IMG/VR virus record: IMGVR_UViG_3300032321_001270
Location: 128,001-192,000 of that record
Source: a virus
Lineage: Duplodnaviria > Caudoviricetes
Direction: 5' to 3' (one strand)
DNA length: 64,000 nucleotides
Every line of letters begins with the position of its first letter. Position 1 is the stretch's first letter. The position numbers were made by a program, and so were the translations under genes. The notes under the pieces were generated by a model. The model saw only the letters and a list, made by a program, of their open reading frames with translations, had not been told where the DNA came from and did no database searches. Of the stretch, positions 6,633-35,045 are shown one piece after another.

Positions 6633-7140
6633 CGACTCTCCGTTTGGTTTTTCTCGACCCCAGCGCCACTGGTTCGACGTGCTTGAGCAATGACCCCGGA
6701 ATCAAAGCGGCCATGTGCCGCAGGAACGTCTGCTCAAATTCGACTTTGGTTAGGTTGTCGTAGCAGCCTGTGCCGTTTTTGTGGTATACCATGTCGCCCT
6801 TGTAGCGCAGCTGGCCTTCTTTGTCTATCAGGCACTTCCACTTCGCAAGGCAGCCGCTGCTGCGGCTCCAGACTTCTAGGCCGACAATCACGTCGTTTTT
6901 GCGGATGTACTTGCCGCATTTGCTGACGGGGATCTCTAGCTCTTCAAAGTCCTGATCGTAGTGCGTGACAATGATATCTTTGGCGCTGTCCCACACACCC
7001 GGAATGCACGTGTCCATGAAGGCCGTGTGCCGTCGGGCGATTACGTCATCTTTCTTCTTTTCTTTAGCCAGCAGTTCTTCGCAAATGGCGCGCTGGCTGG
7101 CCACGATCAATCCAAGCAGTTCATGATTTTGTTGTTCCAT
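6616..7140 (-). CDS. hypothetical protein
   Basis: ORF track; AAGGA SD. Confidence 0.65.
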   Translation of the reverse strand: MEQQNHELLGLIVASQRAICEELLAKEKKKDDVIARRHTAFMDTCIPGVWDSAKDIIVTHYDQDFEELEIPVSKCGKYIRKNDVIVGLEVWSRSSGCLAKWKCLIDKEGQLRYKGDMVYHKNGTGCYDNLTKVEFEQTFLRHMAALIPGSLLKHVEPVALGSRKTKRRVVAMAE

Positions 7141-7390
7141 GGTCGTCCTTTACGACATCCCACCCGATGTGTTTGAATACTTTTTTGGTGGCTTCAAAGT
7201 CTGCGTCGTCATCTTCTCCGGGCGCGATGAGCACAAGCCGCTTGGTTTTGTGCTCTACACGAAATATGGTGTGTGAGCGCGGAATGCCCCACACACCACC
7301 ATCGGCAATGATGCGCACGATGTTCTGGCACCACTCTAAAACTTCAGGCGCCGGATGATCCAGCTCAAAGCCGTTATTTAGCGCTACCAC
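7121..7390 (-). CDS. hypothetical protein
   Basis: GTG start with AGGAG SD; WGIPRS motif. Confidence 0.6.
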   Translation of the reverse strand: MVALNNGFELDHPAPEVLEWCQNIVRIIADGGVWGIPRSHTIFRVEHKTKRLVLIAPGEDDDADFEATKKVFKHIGWDVVKDDHGTTKS

Positions 7391-22089: not shown

Positions 22090-22314
22090 TTATGTCGCTT
22101 GGTTGTCGCCGTGCGGCCACACCTGTGTACGTGTAGTATCCGGCGCGGCAGGGTTAAACTGGTACTGGGGTAGCGGCAACGGTGCCTCAAGTTTAAGATG
22201 GTTTACGGCGTTATCGGAGATGTGCAGCTGCGGACCGGGCCCGCGGCGTGTACCTTCCGTATAGTTTTGTTTACGCTCTTGATACAGTTTTGCTGAACGT
22301 CCAACGTTGGCCAT
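22090..22314 (-). CDS. hypothetical protein
   Basis: GGAGG SD. Confidence 0.65.
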   Translation of the reverse strand: MANVGRSAKLYQERKQNYTEGTRRGPGPQLHISDNAVNHLKLEAPLPLPQYQFNPAAPDTTRTQVWPHGDNQAT

Positions 22315-22372
22315 AAAACCTCCAATAAGTGAGCGACCGGGTCACCGTTTAGTATACCCAGTTGCTCACCGT

Positions 22373-22537
22373 TCACTTGCGAGTAGTTTCTTTCATGGCA
22401 GCTGTGGCTACTTCACACATGTAGCCCAATACATTTGCCAATCCAGCGAGTCCGTAGACGAAAACACATCCCGTATATTTGAGACTGTCTTCGACCCACT
22501 GAAACTCCCACTCGTTACCCGGGTTATTGTGGTTCAT
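22373..22537 (-). CDS. small hypothetical protein (54 aa, MNHNNPGNEWEF...)
   Basis: Manual translation; TAGGT upstream; one hydrophobic segment; shorter than any ORF in the track. Confidence 0.5.
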   Translation of the reverse strand: MNHNNPGNEWEFQWVEDSLKYTGCVFVYGLAGLANVLGYMCEVATAAMKETTRK

Positions 22538-24446
22538 GGTTAAACCTAATAAAGCAATTAAAGCGCTTGATATGCCCTCCGCGGGCGTACAAACGCTTAT
22601 ACAAGAATTAATCTCAATCGACCCAACGGACGTGAAAGCTGTTCACGAGCGTGCGGTTGTTTTGCAGCATCTTGCAAACAAACATGCGTTTCCGTCGCTT
22701 GAACCCATTCTTCCGTTAGTCTTAAACCTTAATGGACGTCCGTACAGCCTACAGAACCATTTTCCGTTTGCCCCCCTATTCAGACTACTCACCCCTAAAA
22801 ATCAGGTGTGGTGTACAGGGCGGCAGGTATCAAAATCGACCAGCCTAGCAGCGCACGGAGTTGTAGTTGCCAACTCTATCCCGTTTTTCAAAACGTTATT
22901 TATCACGCCGCTCTATGAGCAGATTCGGCGTTTCTCGAACAACTATGTGCGCCCGTTTATTGACCAGTCGCCGGTGAAAGCGCAGTGGAGTGGTACGTCA
23001 ACTGAAAACTCTGTGTTGCAGCGTTCGTTCAAGAACAATTCAATGATGTTGTTCAGTTTTGCTTTGTTAGACGCTGACAGAATCCGCGGTGTTTCCGCGG
23101 ATCGTGTGTGTATTGACGAAGTGCAGGATATGGATCCAGATCACGTACCGATCATCCAAGAGACAATGTCTTACTCGCGCTGGGGGACTAGTTATTACAC
23201 GGGTACTCCAAAGACGCTCGATAACTTAATTTACGGTTTGTATAAACGATCCTCACAGGCCGAGTGGTTCATTCCGTGTCATTCTTGTAAACACTGGAAT
23301 ATACCAGCGCTTGAATATGACTTAAACGCAATGATTGGCCCATACAGCGATCACATCAGCGAGAAGTATCCGGGCACCGTATGCGCAAAATGTCAAAAGC
23401 CCGTAAGCCCACGACATGGTCGCTGGGTGCACAGATATCCCGAACGCCGCTGGCAGTTTGCCGGGTATCACGTACCGCAGATGATTCTGCCACTTCATTT
23501 CTCCGACCCTGAAAAGTGGTCTACGCTCTTGTTGAAACGAGAAGGCTTTGGGAACATGACCCAAGCCCAGTTTTACAACGAAGTTATGGGAGAAAGTGTT
23601 GATACCGGCCAGAAGCTCATCAGCGAAACTGATTTGAAAGCTGCGTGCGTACTAGACTGGGAAAACAAGAAAGAACCAGAACCCAAATGCTTCGCAAATC
23701 TGTCGCATTACAAACACCGCATTTTAGCGGTCGACTGGGGCGGTGGCGGAGAAGCCGGTATTAGTTTCACCGTGCTGTCTGTGCTGGGATTCCGGCCCGA
23801 TGGAACAATCGATGTGCTATGGGCCAAACGGTTGCTCATTGGTGGCGACCACTTGGCTGAAGCCGTTGAATGTATGCGCTGGTCTAACTTGTTTAATTGC
23901 GATTTTGTCGCTCATGATTACACCGGTGCAGGCACGGTCCGTGAGACGGTCATGGTGCAGGCAGGGTTTAATCTTGACCGAGTACTTGCGATGCGGCTCG
24001 TCCGTTCCGCGTCGCAAGATTTGATGGTGTATAAACCACCAACGGAAATCAATCACCGCGCACACTACAGCCTTGATAAGACGCGGTCGTTGCTGTACAC
24101 GTGTCAGGCTATCAAACTAAAGCAGATCCGGTTCTTCCAGTATGACTGGTCGTCGCAGGACTCGCCGGGTTTGATATCAGATTTCTTAGCGTTGGTAGAA
24201 GAAAAAGCCGAATCCCGATTGGGCGGCGATATTTATACCATCACTAGAAACACACTATTGACTGACGACTTTGCGCAGGCTGTCAACTTGGGGTGCGCGG
24301 CGTTGTGGCACGTAAACAACGCGTGGCCAAACTTCGCCGAGATTGCCGGCGTTGCTCGACTAAGCGCGCGCGCCGTACAAGCCGAGACGCCGATGGACGA
24401 CGACTGGGCTGACGACGCAATCGGCAACAACTATTTTGGTTATTGA
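22536..24446 (+). CDS. terL: terminase large subunit, gpA-like
   Basis: Walker A GRQVSKS, Walker B CIDEVQD, coupling motif TGTPKT, Zn motifs CHSC and CAKC, nuclease AVDWG. The start could alternatively be 22572. Confidence 0.9.
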   Translation: MVKPNKAIKALDMPSAGVQTLIQELISIDPTDVKAVHERAVVLQHLANKHAFPSLEPILPLVLNLNGRPYSLQNHFPFAPLFRLLTPKNQVWCTGRQVSKSTSLAAHGVVVANSIPFFKTLFITPLYEQIRRFSNNYVRPFIDQSPVKAQWSGTSTENSVLQRSFKNNSMMLFSFALLDADRIRGVSADRVCIDEVQDMDPDHVPIIQETMSYSRWGTSYYTGTPKTLDNLIYGLYKRSSQAEWFIPCHSCKHWNIPALEYDLNAMIGPYSDHISEKYPGTVCAKCQKPVSPRHGRWVHRYPERRWQFAGYHVPQMILPLHFSDPEKWSTLLLKREGFGNMTQAQFYNEVMGESVDTGQKLISETDLKAACVLDWENKKEPEPKCFANLSHYKHRILAVDWGGGGEAGISFTVLSVLGFRPDGTIDVLWAKRLLIGGDHLAEAVECMRWSNLFNCDFVAHDYTGAGTVRETVMVQAGFNLDRVLAMRLVRSASQDLMVYKPPTEINHRAHYSLDKTRSLLYTCQAIKLKQIRFFQYDWSSQDSPGLISDFLALVEEKAESRLGGDIYTITRNTLLTDDFAQAVNLGCAALWHVNNAWPNFAEIAGVARLSARAVQAETPMDDDWADDAIGNNYFGY

Positions 24447-27373: not shown

Positions 27374-30007
27374 TTATCCGATTTCCCGGGCGGCGTTTAG
27401 ATCAGACAACAAGTACTGGTCGCACAATTCTGTTGTTACAAGAATGCCGGGCATGCCGTGAACAATAGCTTCGCCTTTAAAAGCGTCGTTAGCCGTCAGC
27501 TGCTCGACAATCTGTAACCAGTTTGGTGGCAATGCTTTGCAACTATAAAAATAACGATCAATGGCCCTTTGATTCAACCACCAGTGTTCTTTTTTTCGCA
27601 AAATGTAATTTGTCGGTTGATCTTTTTTGCGCGGTTGCGGGAGTACGTCGATTTTTCCGGTTTGTATACCGGCGTAAACAGCGGCTAAAAACGCGGTATC
27701 AGCAGTGGTTTGCGTACTTAACCTGCCGGCGGCGTACTCCAGCTGGAACGTGGCGCCATACGCTGTGTTCAACCACTCCGAAACGTCTGCCAGTACCGCG
27801 AGGGTTGTGTTTTGGTCGAGGAGGCTGAGCCGCATCCTATTTTTGAGGGTGTGTTGGATGTACGCCGGCAGAACGTAACGTAGAACGGAAAAATCAGTTG
27901 ATTTGCTGCTCGCGCGACCGTCAACCACTTGCCACCCGTAACTTTGCGCGGCGGCCGCGGCGATTGAGGATAGTTTTACGAGTAGCGGGCGGTTGTGGCA
28001 TTTCGGAACGATTGGACTCACGCTTGTATCGTCAAACGTGCTCGATACAAATGTTGGCCACAGGCATTCGTTTGTTTTGTCGTAGATGTGTTTGCTGACG
28101 TCGGCGCGGCGCAAAATAGCTGCCTGCAAATGCTCGCAGCCCAGCATCTCACCAATTTTTACGGCAGTGTCGAAGTTTTCGCCTGTGACGGCGGTAGCAA
28201 CATGTTCGCGGCGCAAGATCGGGTTGATTAGCCCGGCGGCAACTGAAGCAAAAATACTCCACGTGAACGCATTCTCAGGACTGGGTGTGAGTAACGTTCG
28301 GATGCTTGGCGGGGCGACTTTTACCGGTTCAGGAAACGTCACGCGGCGGTGTTTTTTTGTAGGCGACAGCGTCTCTGCTGTTGTGCCGTCGTTTTTAATT
28401 TCGTAGTTAGCGAAACGAAAAACGTTTGCTTTGTCATCCCACCCAAGCCGATTTGAAACGTTGATGAATTCCGGGTTGTTCAGCTCTATGGATATTAAGT
28501 GGCTGCGCCGATTCCATGTTCGATCAAAAACCAGCAGTTTGCGATACTGCGCGACGTGTGCTTCCGCAAACGCTAATAATCCCATGCGCTCAATTTTGTT
28601 GGCGCTGTCTGAGAACGGGAACTCTTCGCCGGCAAGATAGATGACGCCGCTGTACGTTTTTTCGCCGTCGTCTGAATGCACGATCTTATTGATGACGACG
28701 TTCGCCGAGCATATGCGTTGATTCGTCACGCTCCACCAGCCGTCGCTACGCGGAGTGACCAACCAGCGCCACGACAGTTTTGGCGTCGTGGCCGACGGCA
28801 TGGTGTTCACCTGCGACAGCACGCGATCAGCAAATCCGGCAGAAAACCGTTCTGATATCTTTTTCAGAAACACGGTCAGTTTGTCCGGCGTGATCGTCAG
28901 GCGGGAGGCGAACGAGTGCGCGGCAATCTCGCTCATACTACTCATGGCGCGGTACAAGCTTGTTTGCCATGTTTCTGCGTTTACGCGCATGGCGGTGAGT
29001 CGGCTCAGCGCGTCTGTACTTAGCCGGCGCTGTAACCGCTGCGTCTGCGACATAATCGTTACGTAACCGCGGGCTGTGCAGGCGCGGCTTACAAGTTCTG
29101 GATTTATGGCGCGACTCTGGAAGATTCGGCTCAATGGCGGAAAAGAATGCCAGTTCAACCCGTAGCTGTTGGCTTCATGTCCGGTATAGCTGCACATTAA
29201 CGGGAGCAGGGGTAGTCCACGCTGCAGGTGCTCGCATTGCATGCTCAGCGCCCAGAACGGATTGTCGACAATGAACTGGGTATTTTTTAACAGCTCTCCG
29301 ACTGGTTGCAGCGCGGTCTTGAGCAGGAAGTACCCGGCTTCTGGTCGGCGGCGTTTGTACCCGGTGGTTGGCACGAAAGTTTGTTTGGCTTCAAACTCTT
29401 CGGTGTATTGCACAAGTAAGACGCCGGTAAGCCGTCCGGGCAAGTCGTAATATGGAAAGACAAGACTCGTGCCTTTTGGGCGGACGCTTCGCGGTTTTGC
29501 CCTGCCAAGCGCGCGGCAGATCTTTTCAATCTGATCCGGGTACGCCACGCCAACTAGTCCGGCCGCGTTGATCTCATGTTGCACGCCCAGCTCGCGGAGG
29601 CGGCACGCGATTAAGTCGTCGCTGTGGTTCCATATCTGCGCTTCGGCGTCAAACCAAAAGTTCTCTATTTCACGGTGCCGGGTTATGGCGCGGTCGTACT
29701 CGCCCGCCATATTGTCTTTTTCGCCGTGATTTACGAGATTTAGGTCAGCGAACCTGTTAAGCGCGTCGGGTAGGCTTGTATTCCATAATGACGCGCCAAA
29801 GGTTATGATATCTCCATGGACTTGACACGAATTACAGTGCAGCCATATACCGTCTGTGGCTAGGTCGTCAAACAGGTGCAGAGTATTCTGTTGACATAAC
29901 GGACAATTCACGACGGCCGGAAAAGTCACATTTTCTGGCGCAACGCCCAACGCCGATAGGGCGCTCACATGGTGTTGTCGGCTGACTAAACAGGTAGGAA
30001 AACCCAT
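27374..30007 (-). CDS. degenerate primase-helicase-like protein
   Basis: N-terminal CPLC...CNSC..HGD.I.F Zn domain, LVFPYYDLPGRLTG primase-like segment, RLGWDD DUF927-like segment; no intact catalytic motifs seen. Confidence 0.6.
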   Translation of the reverse strand: MGFPTCLVSRQHHVSALSALGVAPENVTFPAVVNCPLCQQNTLHLFDDLATDGIWLHCNSCQVHGDIITFGASLWNTSLPDALNRFADLNLVNHGEKDNMAGEYDRAITRHREIENFWFDAEAQIWNHSDDLIACRLRELGVQHEINAAGLVGVAYPDQIEKICRALGRAKPRSVRPKGTSLVFPYYDLPGRLTGVLLVQYTEEFEAKQTFVPTTGYKRRRPEAGYFLLKTALQPVGELLKNTQFIVDNPFWALSMQCEHLQRGLPLLPLMCSYTGHEANSYGLNWHSFPPLSRIFQSRAINPELVSRACTARGYVTIMSQTQRLQRRLSTDALSRLTAMRVNAETWQTSLYRAMSSMSEIAAHSFASRLTITPDKLTVFLKKISERFSAGFADRVLSQVNTMPSATTPKLSWRWLVTPRSDGWWSVTNQRICSANVVINKIVHSDDGEKTYSGVIYLAGEEFPFSDSANKIERMGLLAFAEAHVAQYRKLLVFDRTWNRRSHLISIELNNPEFINVSNRLGWDDKANVFRFANYEIKNDGTTAETLSPTKKHRRVTFPEPVKVAPPSIRTLLTPSPENAFTWSIFASVAAGLINPILRREHVATAVTGENFDTAVKIGEMLGCEHLQAAILRRADVSKHIYDKTNECLWPTFVSSTFDDTSVSPIVPKCHNRPLLVKLSSIAAAAAQSYGWQVVDGRASSKSTDFSVLRYVLPAYIQHTLKNRMRLSLLDQNTTLAVLADVSEWLNTAYGATFQLEYAAGRLSTQTTADTAFLAAVYAGIQTGKIDVLPQPRKKDQPTNYILRKKEHWWLNQRAIDRYFYSCKALPPNWLQIVEQLTANDAFKGEAIVHGMPGILVTTELCDQYLLSDLNAAREIG

Positions 30008-31181
30008 GACAAATATCCCGCTCGATCAGTCACACGATGTCAGTGGTTGCGAAACGCACCGGCTTACCACTCTGTACCCGCAGCCCGACTTTGTTAAAAG
30101 TGCCGCGCATGACAGACTCACCGGCGGCTCTGAGTTAGCACGCCATTTGTATGCTGATCAGCGCAATAAACTTTATCCGTGTCACACGGCGCCCGCAACA
30201 TGGATGTCCGCGCTTTTCTTCGCGGACAAGCAAGCGCAGTTTGACCCGCGCGACGCCGACACTATTAAAACTAGGATACACCAAGCGGCTGAATATTTTG
30301 GCATTGCCGGTGCTGTGGCGGAACTAGAAGAAAAGGTCGCCGCGGCCAACAGCCATGACATTAATGCGCTGCCAGACTCCGAGTTTGCGATTGTCTGGGT
30401 CAGCGACATGGGCGGTAAAGAACGGCACTGGCCGCTACGCAACGCCTCCGAAGTCAAGTTTGCCGCAGCCCACTTCAAGGAATTTCGCGACAACTTTGTG
30501 TTTGCCGACCGTCATATCATCGCCAGCAAAATCCTCGAAAAGGCGGCTGAATACAGCGCAGATGTTTCTGAGGCTGACGGCTCGCTTGAACTTGCTGCCG
30601 GCCTTGGTGCTTGTGCCGCCAAGGTTGCCAGCCAAATGCTTAAAGACCGCGTACGGCTCACCCAACGGCAGCACGCCGATCTGGCCGCTGAGTTGTCCAA
30701 GTTGGCTGAGGTCATTGACCAGAACCCCGAAAGGGCTCGCGAGGTTGAGACCCGGTTGAAGTTGGCGAGCGCGGTCGACAATTTTGATAGGAATACCCAG
30801 CTTTACCGGCTATACGACGCCGGCGGGCTTCCACGGCCTGAAGAAGTATTATTTGCAATCACCGAAAAGGTAGCCCGCGAGTTCATGAACCAGAACGTCG
30901 AAACCACGACCGGCAACGTCTACGCCCTCGAAGATCTTGAGAAGCTGGCGGTTGAAGACGTGCGTGAGTGGCTTGGCGACGAGTTCGCTGATGCCGTGAG
31001 CGCCGGCGGAGTGTACATGGACCGGGACAAGCTCGCGGCCATTGTGCCCACGCTTGACCGCGGTATGGCCGCCACGCTGGACCGACTGGTGCAGCAGAAG
31101 ACGGCCGGCGCTGTTGTTAAGTCAGCGGCGGCGGACAGTCTTCTTTCGCTTGAGCGCCTTCGCGAACTTGCCCGGGGCTGA
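30006..31181 (+). CDS. hypothetical protein with DUF6582-like motif (possible head/scaffold-associated)
   Basis: LPDSEFA...RHWPLRN..EV..AAAHF; related earlier segment KLYPCHT..ATW.SA..F; AGGA SD. Confidence 0.75.
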   Translation: MTNIPLDQSHDVSGCETHRLTTLYPQPDFVKSAAHDRLTGGSELARHLYADQRNKLYPCHTAPATWMSALFFADKQAQFDPRDADTIKTRIHQAAEYFGIAGAVAELEEKVAAANSHDINALPDSEFAIVWVSDMGGKERHWPLRNASEVKFAAAHFKEFRDNFVFADRHIIASKILEKAAEYSADVSEADGSLELAAGLGACAAKVASQMLKDRVRLTQRQHADLAAELSKLAEVIDQNPERAREVETRLKLASAVDNFDRNTQLYRLYDAGGLPRPEEVLFAITEKVAREFMNQNVETTTGNVYALEDLEKLAVEDVREWLGDEFADAVSAGGVYMDRDKLAAIVPTLDRGMAATLDRLVQQKTAGAVVKSAAADSLLSLERLRELARG

Positions 31182-31655
31182 AAGCTTTTTCTTAGGTTTT
31201 CGCTTTGGCTTTGGTTTCGACTGCGCAAACAATTTTGTAATACGCCCAAGCACGGCGTTCGCCGTCGTTTTTTTGTAGTCGACTTTGTCCCACGCTTGGT
31301 GCGTTTCTTTTGCCAGCCCGCGGCGGCTCGCTTCAAGGTCGTGAAACAGGCTGTACTGTGGGTTGTACCACTTGTAAGCGCTGCCCTTGCCCTTGCAGCT
31401 TACGTAGTCGCAAACCGAGATTTCAAAAACAGTGCTTGTCACACTGTCCATGATGATCTGCGCGCCGGCAATAAACCCGGTTGCGCGCGGGTCATCTTTT
31501 TGCGGACGCGGTCCGATGCGAGACGCGTCGATTATTACGGCGTTCCGCCCATAACAATCCCAGCAGTATTTTTCGGCGCTATCAATCGTGTACTTGCACG
31601 CTTGGAAAAAGCGTGCAAGTTGTTCAAACCCGCAGTGGTCAATTTTTGTCGACAT
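31122..31655 (-). CDS. hypothetical protein with basic tail
   Basis: Y.W.CYG..A and AYKWYNP motifs, AWD.VDY. Confidence 0.7.
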   Translation of the reverse strand: MSTKIDHCGFEQLARFFQACKYTIDSAEKYCWDCYGRNAVIIDASRIGPRPQKDDPRATGFIAGAQIIMDSVTSTVFEISVCDYVSCKGKGSAYKWYNPQYSLFHDLEASRRGLAKETHQAWDKVDYKKTTANAVLGRITKLFAQSKPKPKRKPKKKLSAPGKFAKALKRKKTVRRR

Positions 31656-31884
31656 GTGCGATATGTTTTATCCGTTTGACAAGTTCGCGCAACGCCGCAA
31701 GCGCTGGGTTTTCGCGAACCTTGGGCGTGAGAGCGCCCGGGTCGATGTTTTGAGATGAGAGGCCGCTAAGTTCTTCTTGGCGGCAAGATTCTAAATAGTG
31801 ATGCCAGTTATCGTAGGCGTCACGGTCTTCGTCTGATTCGTACGGTCTGTATGGTTCGTCAAGAAGTCTGTCGTTCCAACCCAT
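31639..31884 (-). CDS. hypothetical protein
   Basis: ORF track, operon packing. Confidence 0.6.
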   Translation of the reverse strand: MGWNDRLLDEPYRPYESDEDRDAYDNWHHYLESCRQEELSGLSSQNIDPGALTPKVRENPALAALRELVKRIKHIAHVDKN

Positions 31885-32053
31885 CTTTCTTTTTGTCCTC
31901 GTTTTTGACTAATAGTTCACCGCGCACGATGGACGTGGCTTTGGGCGCGGTTAAGCCGATCTTTACTCTATCGCCGGTAATCCCCAGCACTTTGACGACA
32001 ATGCCGTTACCAATTACGACTTCCTGTTCCTTCTTCCTTGAGAGTACAAGCAT
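31859..32053 (-). CDS. csrA: carbon storage regulator CsrA/RsmA
   Basis: MLVLSRKKEQEVVIGNGIVVKVLGITGDRVKIGLTAPKATSIVRGEL aligns with CsrA; the R6- and R44-equivalent RNA-binding residues are retained. Confidence 0.93.
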   Translation of the reverse strand: MLVLSRKKEQEVVIGNGIVVKVLGITGDRVKIGLTAPKATSIVRGELLVKNEDKKKDGLERQTS

Positions 32054-32063
32054 GATGGCTCCA

Positions 32064-32735
32064 TCATTCTGTTGCAGATTTTTGCAGTAACTCAACCACG
32101 GACTTCGTGTTGCCGTTTTGCAAATCTAACGCCGCGAGTTGTTTGATAAGTAATCCAGTTTTCAAACGAATTGACTGGTTAATGTCTTCTGTTTTTCCGG
32201 CCTCTACGTCATACACAGCGTTGAACATCTCAGGATCATCCGAGAAGTCTTGAATGGAGGGCGACACGCGGGCGGCTCTGAGTGCCACGCGCAGGATGTC
32301 GGGGGCGTTGATGATTCCTTCACTGTCGAGCACGGAACCGATGTAGGCGCGTATCTCATCTGTAAACGGTTCCGGGTCTTCATCGTCGGGCGGGGAGATT
32401 AGCAAGGCTTCTGTAATCCCCCACGCCACTTCTTCGGCGTCAGCGGGATCCCACATATCTGGTCGGTATGTGTCGCCGCCTAGAACGTTGCAAAAATTAA
32501 TGAAATCGGGCAGGCTTTTAAAGAACTGATCTGTGGTGAGAAGCTGAATGGCGACCAGCAGCTTGTCGAGTGACAACTGGGGAAGCTCGACGTCAAACTC
32601 TTCTTCAATTTCGAGGGTGATGGTGGCTGGGTCCCAGTGCAACGCTTCCATCCCAAATTTGTCAAGAAACAGCGTCAGTAGTACTGTCGCAAACGTCTCC
32701 CGGCTCTTCCACGCTTCCTGCATTATTTTTGACAT
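32064..32735 (-). CDS. conserved hypothetical protein
   Basis: ORF track; well-formed acidic helical protein. Confidence 0.75.
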   Translation of the reverse strand: MSKIMQEAWKSRETFATVLLTLFLDKFGMEALHWDPATITLEIEEEFDVELPQLSLDKLLVAIQLLTTDQFFKSLPDFINFCNVLGGDTYRPDMWDPADAEEVAWGITEALLISPPDDEDPEPFTDEIRAYIGSVLDSEGIINAPDILRVALRAARVSPSIQDFSDDPEMFNAVYDVEAGKTEDINQSIRLKTGLLIKQLAALDLQNGNTKSVVELLQKSATE

Positions 32736-33207
32736 TGAGGCCAGCCCTGTTCTCAATCAGCCGCACACCCCGGTGGCGCAGCTCGACTAGATTATACGCG
32801 ATTGTCTCTAGCGGCGTCCTTGGAAGAGTCGTAACCCGTTCTCCAGACTCAAGATCCGTCCAGCCAAATTGCCCGCTCCACGTGGCAAACCGCCCATCCG
32901 CGAAAGCGATCTGTTGGGCGCAGCACGGGTGGTTGTCTGCCGTCTCAGGCCAGTCTTCCATGTGCCGCGACGCCCACATCAGCTCTAGCAGCAGCAAGCG
33001 CTGTTCTGCAGACAGAAACGCAAGGTTTTCCATCATGTCAGCGATCAGGATGTAAAACACCGCATCTTCGGCAAGCGGGGCGTCTGGAGCCGGGGCCGTC
33101 TTTTTCATTACAGCCGAAAAAAGATTGCGTATTTGCAACTTGCTAAGTTTTACGACCCGCATTACCATATCGAGCGTCAGGTCTTTTTTCACTTCGGAGG
33201 TAGCCAT
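32662..33207 (-). CDS. hypothetical protein
   Basis: Protein-like segment from MATSEVKK; start uncertain (33207, 33219/33222 or internal). Confidence 0.6.
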   Translation of the reverse strand: MATSEVKKDLTLDMVMRVVKLSKLQIRNLFSAVMKKTAPAPDAPLAEDAVFYILIADMMENLAFLSAEQRLLLLELMWASRHMEDWPETADNHPCCAQQIAFADGRFATWSGQFGWTDLESGERVTTLPRTPLETIAYNLVELRHRGVRLIENRAGLNVKNNAGSVEEPGDVCDSTTDAVS

Positions 33208-33484
33208 GTCTGTTTCCATCATCGACAACCTTTCTAACATTACGTCTGGTCGCGCTGAATTCGTCGTCAGCGCCAATGGTATCGAAGAACTTCTGTCGTC
33301 GGCAACTGCAAACGTCGTGCTGCAAAAAGCTGCGGAAGCCGGACTGAACCGCCCGGGGGTTTCGAGCGCGAGCGGCCCATATCCGGTTGACGCTGACGGC
33401 AAGACCGACGACGAGTTGATGATGGGCAAGCGCGGCCCGGTCGCCGGTTACCGTCGAGATTTTGTTATCTTAGCTTCGATTTGA
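33206..33484 (+). CDS. hypothetical protein
   Basis: GGAGG-5 nt-ATG; GPYPVDADG motif; stop abuts the opposite-strand stop. Confidence 0.75.
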   Translation: MSVSIIDNLSNITSGRAEFVVSANGIEELLSSATANVVLQKAAEAGLNRPGVSSASGPYPVDADGKTDDELMMGKRGPVAGYRRDFVILASI

Positions 33485-34792: not shown

Positions 34793-35045
34793 AACTCCCT
34801 TGTAACGCGTGGAAAGGGAGCTACTGATACGATACAGTAGCGACAATAAATATGCCGCGTTTTTGGGAAAAATTTAGCGTCGTCTGGAATTCGCGAATTG
34901 CGAACATCGTTGCAATTAAACGACTTACGGCGCAAAGTATCGTGTTCTAGAAAATGGAAAATGCAACCGCCGCCCCGCGCTGACCTAGGGCATGGAGCCC
35001 GTTGGCCGCGTGGAACGCAGCCGTTCAGTCAGCGCAGGGCGGCGG
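34793..35045 (-). ncRNA. structured intergenic RNA / leader (three-way junction plus SD-sequestering hairpin)
   Basis: 18-bp stem 34967-34984 / 35028-35045 enclosing two hairpins; further hairpins at 34795-34820 and 34820-34841. Confidence 0.5.

What the first reader, a model, noticed from the sequence alone, without database searches (positions are those of the whole stretch)
29990..30030. Divergent genes share one CATG: both start codons overlap with zero intergenic space
Seen: CATG at 30005-30008 supplies the ATG of the 391-aa plus gene (30006) and the ATG of the 877-aa minus gene (30007). For both, it is the most upstream standard start in the ORF track, and the minus frame hits a stop 7 codons upstream. 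Each gene has an SD-like motif inside the other's coding region (AGGA; GCGGGA). Inference: promoters must be intragenic and the two mRNAs have complementary 5' ends, allowing mutually exclusive (antisense or collision) control, or the mRNAs are leaderless. The same geometry recurs at both other divergent junctions.
Basis: partly seen in the sequence, partly recalled or inferred. Interest (0 to 1): 0.8.

Follow-up and report, generated by a model that had tools for sequence, protein, structure and literature searches.

The report
Two phage genes sharing one CATG start
In a 205-kb uncultured phage, the replication primase-helicase gene and a conserved gene on the opposite strand really do begin on the same four bases (CATG), a rare but already known head-to-head overlap that relatives have kept for a very long time and that probably makes the two genes interfere with each other's expression.

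Summary
CATG at 30005-30008 supplies the ATG of the plus 391-aa gene (30006) and the ATG of the minus 877-aa gene (30007).

Both starts are authentic by comparative evidence:
- All 49 related viral contigs examined keep the shared CATG, as do four more distant contigs (877-aa protein down to 27% identity).
- In-frame indels have occurred on both sides of it.
- Both N-termini are conserved from residue 1.
- Codon periodicity begins at the CATG on both sides.
- No other start is conserved.

The 877-aa protein folds as a DnaG-type primase fused to an SF3 helicase. The 391-aa protein is helical and of unknown function.

The plus gene keeps a Shine-Dalgarno (AGGTAGGA) written in frozen rare codons 4-7 of the primase gene, so its mRNA is not leaderless. 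A second frozen block (29802-29815) is a candidate embedded promoter.

The layout resembles an excludon or noncontiguous operon, but mutual exclusion is untested because no RNA data were available.

The same CATG geometry occurs at TerL (22535-22538), conserved in about a third of relatives, and at 33205-33208, where the start is ambiguous.

This scan has already recorded and confirmed CATG start-start overlaps on other DNA. This is a well-supported new member of a known kind.

The parts
30005..30008 (.). Palindromic CATG shared by the two start codons (2-nt overlap of the ATGs; phase 1:2, 2:1, 3:3)
   Evidence: Kept in 49/49 IMG/VR loci and in L025, L026, L027, L165 and L167.
27374..30007 (-). 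877-aa gene: a Zn-ribbon (C35, C38, C58, C61) DnaG-type primase fused to an SF3 (Cch / SaPI Rep-like) helicase
   Evidence: AF2 model, pLDDT 87. Foldseek PDB hits 8tch and 5dgk (E about 1e-10) and 2au3 (6.5e-7). Family of 772 representatives. No Pfam or PHROG hit.
30006..31181 (+). 391-aa conserved, mostly helical protein of unknown function. It is the only plus-strand gene between minus-strand neighbours
   Evidence: Weak DUF6582 hit. Invariant residues start at D7.
29992..29999 (+). Shine-Dalgarno of the plus gene (AGGTAGGA, 6 nt before the ATG), lying within codons 3-6 of the primase-helicase gene (frozen codons 4-7: CCT ACC TGT TTA)
   Evidence: Third-position entropy is 0-0.6 at codons 4-7, although CCT, TGT and TTA are rare or minor codons. 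An SD-like element is kept in all clades, mean duplex energy -6.1 kcal/mol.
30016..30021 (-). Weak SD-like GCGGGA upstream of the minus ATG, inside codons 4-6 of the plus gene
   Evidence: Mean duplex energy is -4.4 kcal/mol. It is variable and is absent in the L141-L145 clade.
30026..30028 (-). In-frame TGA 7 codons upstream of the minus ATG. It closes the minus ORF
   Evidence: It is kept at 7 codons in 22 of the 23 sequences examined (9 codons in L012).
29802..29815 (.). Nucleotide-level conserved block GTTATGATATCTCC inside primase codons 65-69, 191-204 nt upstream of the plus ATG. It is a candidate embedded promoter or operator for the plus gene; the functional strand is unknown
   Evidence: This is the lowest third-position entropy window of the whole 877-codon gene (codons 63-70, z = -4.7, 43 distinct sequences). 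The rare codons GGA and ATA are frozen.
29775..29785 (.). Second, less strictly conserved block CTTGTATTCCA (primase codons 75-78)
31252..31274 (+). Terminator-like hairpin and T-run 70 nt after the plus gene's stop codon
   Evidence: Five relatives carry much stronger plus-strand-only intrinsic terminators 27-60 nt after the homologous stop.
22535..22538 (.). Second CATG start-start overlap: TerL (22536-24446, plus) with a conserved 54-aa ORF (22373-22537, minus)
33205..33208 (.). Third CATG: a 92-aa plus gene (33206-33484, GGAGG SD at 33196-33200) with a 181-aa minus ORF (32662-33207). The minus start is ambiguous

Best explanation
Shown by comparative evidence: two authentic protein-coding genes are interlocked head-to-head. 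The minus gene encodes the phage's replicative primase-helicase. The plus gene encodes a highly conserved 391-aa helical protein. Each uses one reading of the palindrome CATG as its start codon.

Shown: the plus gene is translated by ordinary SD-led initiation. Its SD, AGGTAGGA, lies within codons 3-6 of the primase-helicase gene, where rare codons (4-7) are held fixed.

Inferred: the plus gene is its own small transcription unit. Its promoter would be embedded in the first ~230 nt of the primase-helicase ORF, and the frozen block at 29802-29815 is the candidate. The unit would end shortly after its stop codon.

Inferred: the primase-helicase is transcribed leftward with its minus-strand neighbours, across the antisense of the plus gene. 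That makes the plus gene a reversed gene inside a leftward array, as in a noncontiguous operon or excludon.

Inferred consequence: the two mRNAs are perfectly complementary across both ribosome-binding regions, and the two polymerases must pass through each other's promoter or start region. High expression of one gene should therefore depress the other through transcriptional interference and RNA duplex formation. A plausible reading is a separation in time of replication from the plus gene's (possibly morphogenetic) function.
For: Both starts are real:
- The CATG is kept in 49/49 IMG/VR loci and in four more distant contigs, down to 27% identity of the large protein.
- In-frame indels and different N-terminal peptides occur on both sides. 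On the minus side MGFPTCL, MASLPVSL and MLISSII are seen; on the plus side MTNIPLDQ, MTTPLDQ and MDILDH.
- No alternative in-frame start is conserved before Zn-ribbon Cys35.
- The plus protein has invariant D7, D11, E16, H18 and R19.
- Third-position entropy far exceeds that of positions 1 and 2 from codons 1-10 on both sides.
- In the AF2 model the N-terminal helix 10-19 is confident.

SD and embedded elements:
- Codons 63-70 and 3-10 are the two most synonymously constrained windows of the 877-codon gene (z = -4.7 and -3.3).
- The frozen codons are rare ones: CCT 10%, TTA 11%, GGA 11%, ATA 10% of their amino acids.
- The plus SD is kept in every clade, and SD use is the norm in this genome.

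Discrete plus unit: strong plus-strand-only terminators lie 27-60 nt after the homologous stop in five relatives.

Reversed-gene context:
- Almost all genes are on the minus strand.
- The nearest copy of the phage's 9-copy promoter-like motif on the minus strand is at 34844-34880, upstream of the array.
- No convincing minus-strand terminator lies between 31122 and 30008.

Precedent: excludons and noncontiguous operons, four of them in phage 80alpha, give mutually repressed overlapping transcripts (PMC11034616; PMC7154746 and PMC12288877).
Against: - There is no transcript, TSS or ribosome data for this phage.
- No sigma-70-like promoter was found at 29000-32000. The frozen block at 29802-29815 matches no repeated motif in the genome, and its functional strand is unknown. 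It could instead serve the primase mRNA or a DNA-binding protein; it contains the palindrome GATATC.
- The window's own plus-strand terminator is weak, and most close relatives have none by my scan.
- The function of the 391-aa protein is unknown, so 'opposing functions' is a guess.
- Conservation of the CATG could be partly a mutational lock-in rather than selection for regulation.
Confidence: 0.6

Rival explanations
1. Neutral lock-in. Both starts are real and overlap, but the overlap has no regulatory role. It is simply a compact junction. Once formed it is hard to undo, because changing A or T destroys both start codons. Expression of the two genes would then be governed independently, for example by timing of distant promoters.
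For: - Junctions at strand switches in this region are tight at the tail ends too: 33484|33485 abut, 24446|24452 leave a 5-nt gap, and 31122-31181 overlap by 60 nt. This suggests general compaction.
- The TerL junction shows both overlapped and separated variants among relatives with no obvious consequence.
- One public contig is called with a 4-nt gap between the homologous pair.
Against: - A 2-nt tandem duplication (CATG to CATATG) would separate the starts without harming either gene. Yet every relative examined at the DNA level keeps the overlap, down to 27% identity of one partner.
- Whatever the selective cause, the conserved SD forces the plus leader to be antisense to the primase start region, so some interaction is hard to avoid.
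Confidence: 0.27
2. Bidirectional leaderless initiation. Transcription starts at the A of each ATG, since CATG gives C(-1)A(+1) on both strands. The primase-helicase mRNA at least would be leaderless, and the palindrome itself would be the functional element.
For: - The minus gene's SD is weak and is missing in the L141-L145 clade.
- The sequence just upstream of the minus ATG (GGGATATTTGTC) resembles the 3' box (CATAT) of the phage's 9-copy promoter-like motif (comparison by eye).
- Exact retention of the CATG would be expected under this model.
Against: - The plus gene keeps a selected SD, so it is not leaderless.
- The full promoter-motif matrix scores below 3 anywhere near the junction. 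All 9 strong copies have the upstream GCTAAAT box, which is absent here.
- SD-led initiation is the norm in this genome.
Confidence: 0.09
3. Annotation artefact. One of the two genes really starts at a downstream codon, leaving a normal intergenic gap that holds promoters.
For: - Automatic gene callers in public contigs do truncate one partner: 325 aa in L027, 348 aa in L167, and 855 instead of about 879 aa in L165.
- The first 24 residues of the 391-aa model are low-confidence.
Against: - The truncated calls ignore conserved, in-frame N-terminal sequence that aligns with the window's proteins from the CATG.
- No downstream start is conserved.
- Residues 7-20 of the plus protein are invariant.
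- Codon periodicity begins at codon 1.
Confidence: 0.04

Closest known systems
Head-to-head (divergent) overlapping genes of prokaryotes
   Same: Two genes on opposite strands overlap at their 5' ends. The phase (codon positions 1:2, 2:1, 3:3) is the one reported as commonest for divergent overlaps (59%) in a survey of 58 genomes (PMC2174442).
   Different: This class is the rarest kind of overlap (331 of about 14,960 in that survey) and is often suspected to be misannotation. Here both starts are backed by deep comparative evidence, and one gene's SD is demonstrably written into the other's codons.
Excludons and noncontiguous operons (Listeria, S. aureus; four in phage 80alpha)
   Same: A single reversed gene sits between co-directional genes, so overlapping sense and antisense transcripts are expected. 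The described outcome is mutual repression by transcriptional interference and RNase III (PMC11034616; PMC7154746 and PMC12288877).
   Different: Those loci are defined by transcript maps and usually have UTR overlaps with intergenic spacers. Here there is no spacer at all, the overlap includes both start codons, and no transcript data exist.
CATG start-start pairs recorded earlier in this scan on other DNA (for example RAZR-like prophage RNase with a small partner; Elp3 with a Trm9-like gene in CPR bacteria)
   Same: The four-base geometry is identical, and follow-up agents reported it as conserved among relatives.
   Different: The genes are unrelated. Here the pair is a replicative primase-helicase and a 391-aa phage protein in a 205-kb phage, and the geometry appears at up to three junctions within 11 kb.
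DnaG-primase / SF3-helicase fusion proteins (SCCmec Cch 5dgk, SaPIbov1 Rep 8tch; functional analogues T7 gp4 and Twinkle)
   Same: The predicted fold of the 877-aa protein has an N-terminal Zn-binding domain and Toprim primase like Aquifex DnaG (2au3), followed by a C-terminal Cch/Rep-like helicase.
   Different: No Pfam model (Toprim, DUF927, Zn_ribbon_DnaG) reaches significance in it or in 33 relatives. Sequence identity to the structural matches is 9-12%.

Membership tests
Divergent (head-to-head) overlapping gene pair | Both ORFs are real protein-coding genes | tested here: met
   Homologues number 360 or more and 772. Codon periodicity, positive codon scores and a confident fold for the large protein all agree.
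Divergent (head-to-head) overlapping gene pair | The authentic start codons (not just the ORFs) overlap | tested here: met
   This rests on comparative evidence only. The CATG is the only conserved start on both strands, and the N-termini are conserved from residue 1. No experimental start mapping exists.
Excludon | Overlapping transcripts from the divergent genes | not testable with these tools
An overlap of at least the plus leader is implied by the conserved SD.
Excludon | Mutually exclusive expression, with the stronger transcript repressing the other | not testable with these tools
   No expression data are available.
Noncontiguous operon | One or a few reversed genes flanked by co-directional genes | tested here: met
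   The gene map shows minus genes on both sides of 30006-31181: 27374-30007 and 31122-31655.
Noncontiguous operon | A single transcript joins the co-directional genes across the reversed gene | not testable with these tools
   The only indirect evidence is that there is no convincing minus-strand terminator at 30008-31122 and that relatives' terminators act on the plus strand only.
Leaderless mRNA | No SD or leader; transcription starts at the start codon | tested here: not met
   For the plus gene the SD is conserved and selected. For the minus gene the result is inconclusive: the SD is weak or absent and no TSS data exist.
DnaG-type primase fused to SF3 helicase | Four-Cys zinc ribbon at the N-terminus | tested here: met
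   C35, C58 and C61 are invariant and C38 is nearly invariant in 34 family members.
DnaG-type primase fused to SF3 helicase | Toprim primase fold and SF3 helicase fold | tested here: met
   Foldseek gives 2au3, 4e2k, 3b39 and 8dvf_H for the primase part, and 8tch and 5dgk for the helicase part.
DnaG-type primase fused to SF3 helicase | Match to the family HMMs (Toprim_2, DUF927, Zn_ribbon_DnaG) | tested here: not met
   There is only a sub-threshold Zn_ribbon_DnaG hit (E 0.087). None of the 34 members matches at E <= 0.001.
DnaG-type primase fused to SF3 helicase | Catalytic Toprim acidic residues and Walker A/B motifs | not tested
   These were not examined residue by residue.

The most novel reading that the evidence does not exclude
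The shared CATG would be part of a lineage-specific 'grammar' for embedding reversed genes in a one-strand phage genome. At each reversed gene (TerL, the 391-aa gene, the 92-aa gene) the two interlocked ribosome-binding regions would form an obligate either/or toggle. Plus-strand transcription from promoters hidden in the neighbouring ORF would switch the 11-kb region from replication (primase-helicase) to packaging and morphogenesis, while silencing the leftward genes by antisense.
Probability: 0.12. Interest if true: 0.7.

Novelty: new member of a known kind. Interest (0 to 1): 0.4.

Why it matters
1. Annotation. Public gene calls for this phage group systematically truncate one partner of the pair to avoid the overlap: 325 or 348 aa instead of about 391, and 855 instead of about 879. 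The true N-termini, including part of the primase's N-terminal domain, are therefore being lost.

2. Biology. This is one of the best comparative cases that a zero-spacer head-to-head overlap can be real and stable over deep divergence. One gene's ribosome-binding site is visibly imposed on the other's codon choice.

3. Experiment. If the interlock does act as a switch between the replicative primase-helicase and the reversed genes (including the terminase), it gives a simple, testable module. A 500-bp fragment with two reporters could be used to study antisense and collision control in phages.

Tried and rejected
- DNA and protein searches of the deposited-phage collection found nothing.
- PHROG and Pfam gave no significant family for either protein. 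Profile searches against PDB sequences gave nothing useful.
- The 391-aa model was too poor (pLDDT 66, pTM 0.31) to assign a fold. Its only real match is an unnamed viral homologue.
- A sigma-70 promoter scan of 29000-32000 found none.
- The phage's 9-copy promoter-like motif (GCTAAAT-N17-CATAT) was re-derived and scanned genome-wide. There is no copy near the junction.
- I searched for repeats of the frozen blocks elsewhere in the genome and upstream of the other plus genes. No shared motif emerged.
- A conserved block upstream of TerL (22343-22357) is loosely similar to the frozen block, but it may equally be the promoter of the minus gene at 22314.
- Inverted repeats and RNA folding around the junction were unremarkable (z = -1.55).
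- CATG pairs at window 7138-7141 and at genome 52337 were rejected as chance. In the first the plus ORF is not conserved; in the second the minus ORF has a negative coding score.
- A genome-wide count of CATGs with ORFs of at least 50 aa on both strands is uninformative: 130 observed against about 124 expected.
- Literature searches for a described CATG start-start rule found only general overlap statistics.
Full report
**Context.** The window is bases 128001-192000 of a single 205,188-bp virus record with 54% GC. A simple codon-score gene caller places about 209 genes. Nearly all are on the minus strand, with only a handful of isolated plus-strand genes. One plus gene is the large terminase, at 22536-24446. 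Tail-fibre and other structural genes lie on the minus strand. The deposited-phage collection has no relative. Uncultured ~200-kb viral contigs from metagenomes have many.

**The observation.**
- The sequence reads ...AACAGGTAGGAAAACC-CATG-ACAAATATCCCGCTCGATCAG..., with CATG at 30005-30008.
- The plus ATG at 30006 opens a 391-codon ORF, and the minus ATG at 30007 opens an 877-codon ORF.
- The minus frame is closed by a TGA 7 codons upstream, at 30026-30028.
- The plus frame is open for 38 codons upstream but contains no ATG, GTG or TTG.

**Are both starts real?**
- I fetched 22 and then 49 related IMG/VR loci through the 391-aa protein. I fetched more distant relatives through the 877-aa protein.
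- Every locus for which DNA was available keeps a CATG that starts both genes. Across them the 877-aa protein falls to 27-33% identity. The 391-aa protein was still 61-62% identical in the most distant loci where this was measured; it was not measured in L165 and L167.
- The flanks are not frozen. The minus protein begins MGFPTCL, MGLPISL, MASLPVSL, MLISSII, MLTGSIV or MNSVSSL. The plus protein begins MTNIPLDQ, MTTPLDQ, MDILDH or MTQIILDH. In-frame indels next to the CATG have therefore occurred on both sides while the overlap persisted.
- No other in-frame start is conserved before the first zinc-ribbon cysteine, C35.
- The plus protein has invariant residues from D7 onward.
- Third-codon-position entropy far exceeds that of positions 1 and 2 from the very first ten codons on both sides.
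- The AF2 model of the large protein includes a confident helix at residues 10-19.
- In three public contigs the automatic gene caller avoided the overlap by truncating one partner. The 'missing' N-termini are in frame, conserved, and begin at the CATG.
- The only possible exception is a 4-kb Logan contig in which the pair is called with a 4-nt gap. Its DNA could not be retrieved.

**What the genes are.**
- The 877-aa protein has no Pfam or PHROG hit. Its model (pLDDT 87) matches DnaG-type primases over the N-terminal half, including the Zn-binding plus RNA-polymerase domains of Aquifex primase. It matches SF3 replicative helicases (SaPIbov1 Rep, SCCmec Cch) over the C-terminal half. A language-model look-up agrees. 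I read it as the phage's primase-helicase.
- The 391-aa protein is mostly helical and poorly modelled. It has a sub-threshold DUF6582 hit, and all its homologues are 'hypothetical'. Its function is unknown.
I did not test that.

**Embedded signals.**
- I built a codon-aware alignment of 43 distinct sequences. In it, the two windows with the lowest third-position entropy in the whole 877-codon gene are codons 63-70 (z = -4.7) and codons 3-10 (z = -3.3). Both lie within 210 nt of the plus ATG.
- Codons 4-7 are CCT ACC TGT TTA. CCT, TGT and TTA are rare or minor codons in this genome at 10%, 26% and 11%, yet they hardly vary. On the plus strand they spell most of AACAGGTAGG, the SD region of the 391-aa gene.
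- An SD-like element at 5-11 nt is kept in every clade, even where the primase N-terminus differs: GAGGTAGGA, AGGCAGGA or TGGAGC.
- SD use is general in this genome, with GGAG and AGGA about 10-fold enriched upstream of starts. The plus mRNA is therefore not leaderless, and its leader is antisense to the first codons of the primase-helicase mRNA.
- Codons 65-68 are GGA GAT ATC ATA, with GGA and ATA rare at 11% and 10%. They are frozen as GTTATGATATCTCC on the plus strand, at 29802-29815. This is a candidate promoter or operator about 200 nt upstream of the plus ATG. It matches no recurring motif and no sigma-70 consensus, and its functional strand is unknown.
- The minus gene's SD is weak (GCGGGA) and is absent in one clade. 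Constraint on the first codons of the plus gene is modest (z = -2.4).

**Transcription context.**
I re-derived and scanned it. It occurs only on the minus strand, and the nearest copy is at 34844-34880, upstream of the leftward array that contains the junction. There is none near the junction.
- No convincing minus-strand terminator lies between 31122 and 30008.
- Five relatives carry strong intrinsic terminators that work only on the plus strand, 27-60 nt after the 391-aa homologue's stop. The window has a weaker one at 31252-31274.
- This fits a small plus-strand unit (embedded promoter, SD, gene, terminator) set backwards inside a leftward operon. That is the architecture called a noncontiguous operon, an extreme excludon, in which overlapping transcripts repress each other.
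- The fit is an inference, because RNA data could not be consulted.

**The other junctions.**
- At TerL, CATG at 22535-22538 is shared with a 54-aa minus ORF. That ORF is itself conserved at 52-89% identity in about 20 loci. The overlap, with a comparable antisense ORF, is kept in about 26 of the 72 loci whose TerL start could be examined (78 fetched). Elsewhere TerL has a different N-terminus and the starts are tens of bases apart.
- At 33205-33208 a 92-aa plus gene with a strong GGAGG SD shares CATG with a 181-aa minus ORF. Two of five relatives keep it. Three have TATG, and in-frame ATGs 4-5 codons further upstream could give a 14-17-nt overlap instead.
- The mechanical CATG pairs at 7138-7141 and at genome 52337 are chance. 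The divergent junction at genome 52148|52338 has a normal 189-nt spacer.
- The geometry is therefore recurrent in an 11-kb region, but only the primase / 391-aa junction is invariant.

**Comparison with what is known.**
- Divergent overlaps are the rarest overlap class: 331 of about 14,960 in 58 genomes. The explanation usually given is that initiation signals are hard to superimpose. The phase seen here is the commonest for that class.
- This scan has already recorded many CATG start-start pairs on other DNA, several of them confirmed by follow-up.
- The finding is therefore a new, unusually well-supported member of a known kind. What is specific here is the depth of conservation, the visible imprint of one gene's SD on the other's codon choice, the identity of one partner (a replicative primase-helicase), and the repetition at neighbouring reversed genes.

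**Verdict.**
- Observation: confirmed.
- Both starts real: about 0.9 on comparative evidence.
- Plus mRNA leaderless: rejected.
- Regulatory interlock (excludon-like): plausible but untested, about 0.45. The main rival is a neutral lock-in.

Noticed in passing
L027:2827-4002 (-), L167:1830-3002 (-), L165:2929-5568 (+): Public automatic gene calls truncate one partner of the pair to avoid the overlap: 325 and 348 aa instead of about 391, and 855 instead of about 879. The conserved N-termini start at the CATG.
   Followed up: yes
All nine copies are on the minus strand.
   Followed up: partly
L128:4212, L135:4216, L137:4219, L140:4221, L147:4210: Strong intrinsic terminators (10-12-bp GC stems followed by a T6-8 run) on the plus strand only, 27-60 nt after the stop of the 391-aa homologue. 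They are absent or weak in the window's closest relatives.
   Followed up: partly
window 22343-22357: A conserved intergenic block CACCGTTTAGTATAC lies between the 54-aa ORF and the next minus gene (ATG at 22314). It is loosely similar to the frozen block at 29802-29815 (GTTwwGwwwwC). It could be a promoter on either strand.
   Followed up: no
window 33206-33222: The minus ORF at the third junction has in-frame ATGs at 33219 and 33222 (MMETDMATSEV) with an AAAGG SD-like motif. The true divergent overlap there may be 14-17 nt rather than 2 nt.
   Followed up: partly
L009 / L115 (IMGVR_UViG_3300022752_000023): The primase-helicase ORF is open for only 317 codons in this 144-kb contig. This could be a frameshift, a broken gene or an assembly error.
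   Followed up: no
Logan contig with P0135 (ERR10034898), no DNA held: The homologous pair is called as 391 aa (-, ending at 1183) and 879 aa (+, from 1188). If the calls are right, this is a possible natural variant with a 4-nt spacer.
   Followed up: no
genome 52338-52661 (+), outside the window: An isolated plus-strand 107-aa gene with a signal-peptide-like N-terminus, a CxxC motif (thioredoxin-like by eye) and a strong AGGAGGG SD. The CATG at its start is coincidental.
   Followed up: partly
window 31122-31181: The 3' end of the 391-aa gene overlaps by 60 nt the lysine-rich C-terminal tail of the convergent 177-aa minus ORF (31122-31655). The tail-to-tail junctions of the other reversed genes are also nearly spacer-free (24446|24452 and 33484|33485).
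   Followed up: no
window 29992-29999 and 31859-32095: The phage's csrA (noted by earlier readers) lies two genes upstream on the minus strand. This synteny is kept in L027 and L165. The plus gene's SD region (ACAGGTAGGA) carries a GGA motif that a CsrA-type regulator could in principle bind.
   Followed up: no
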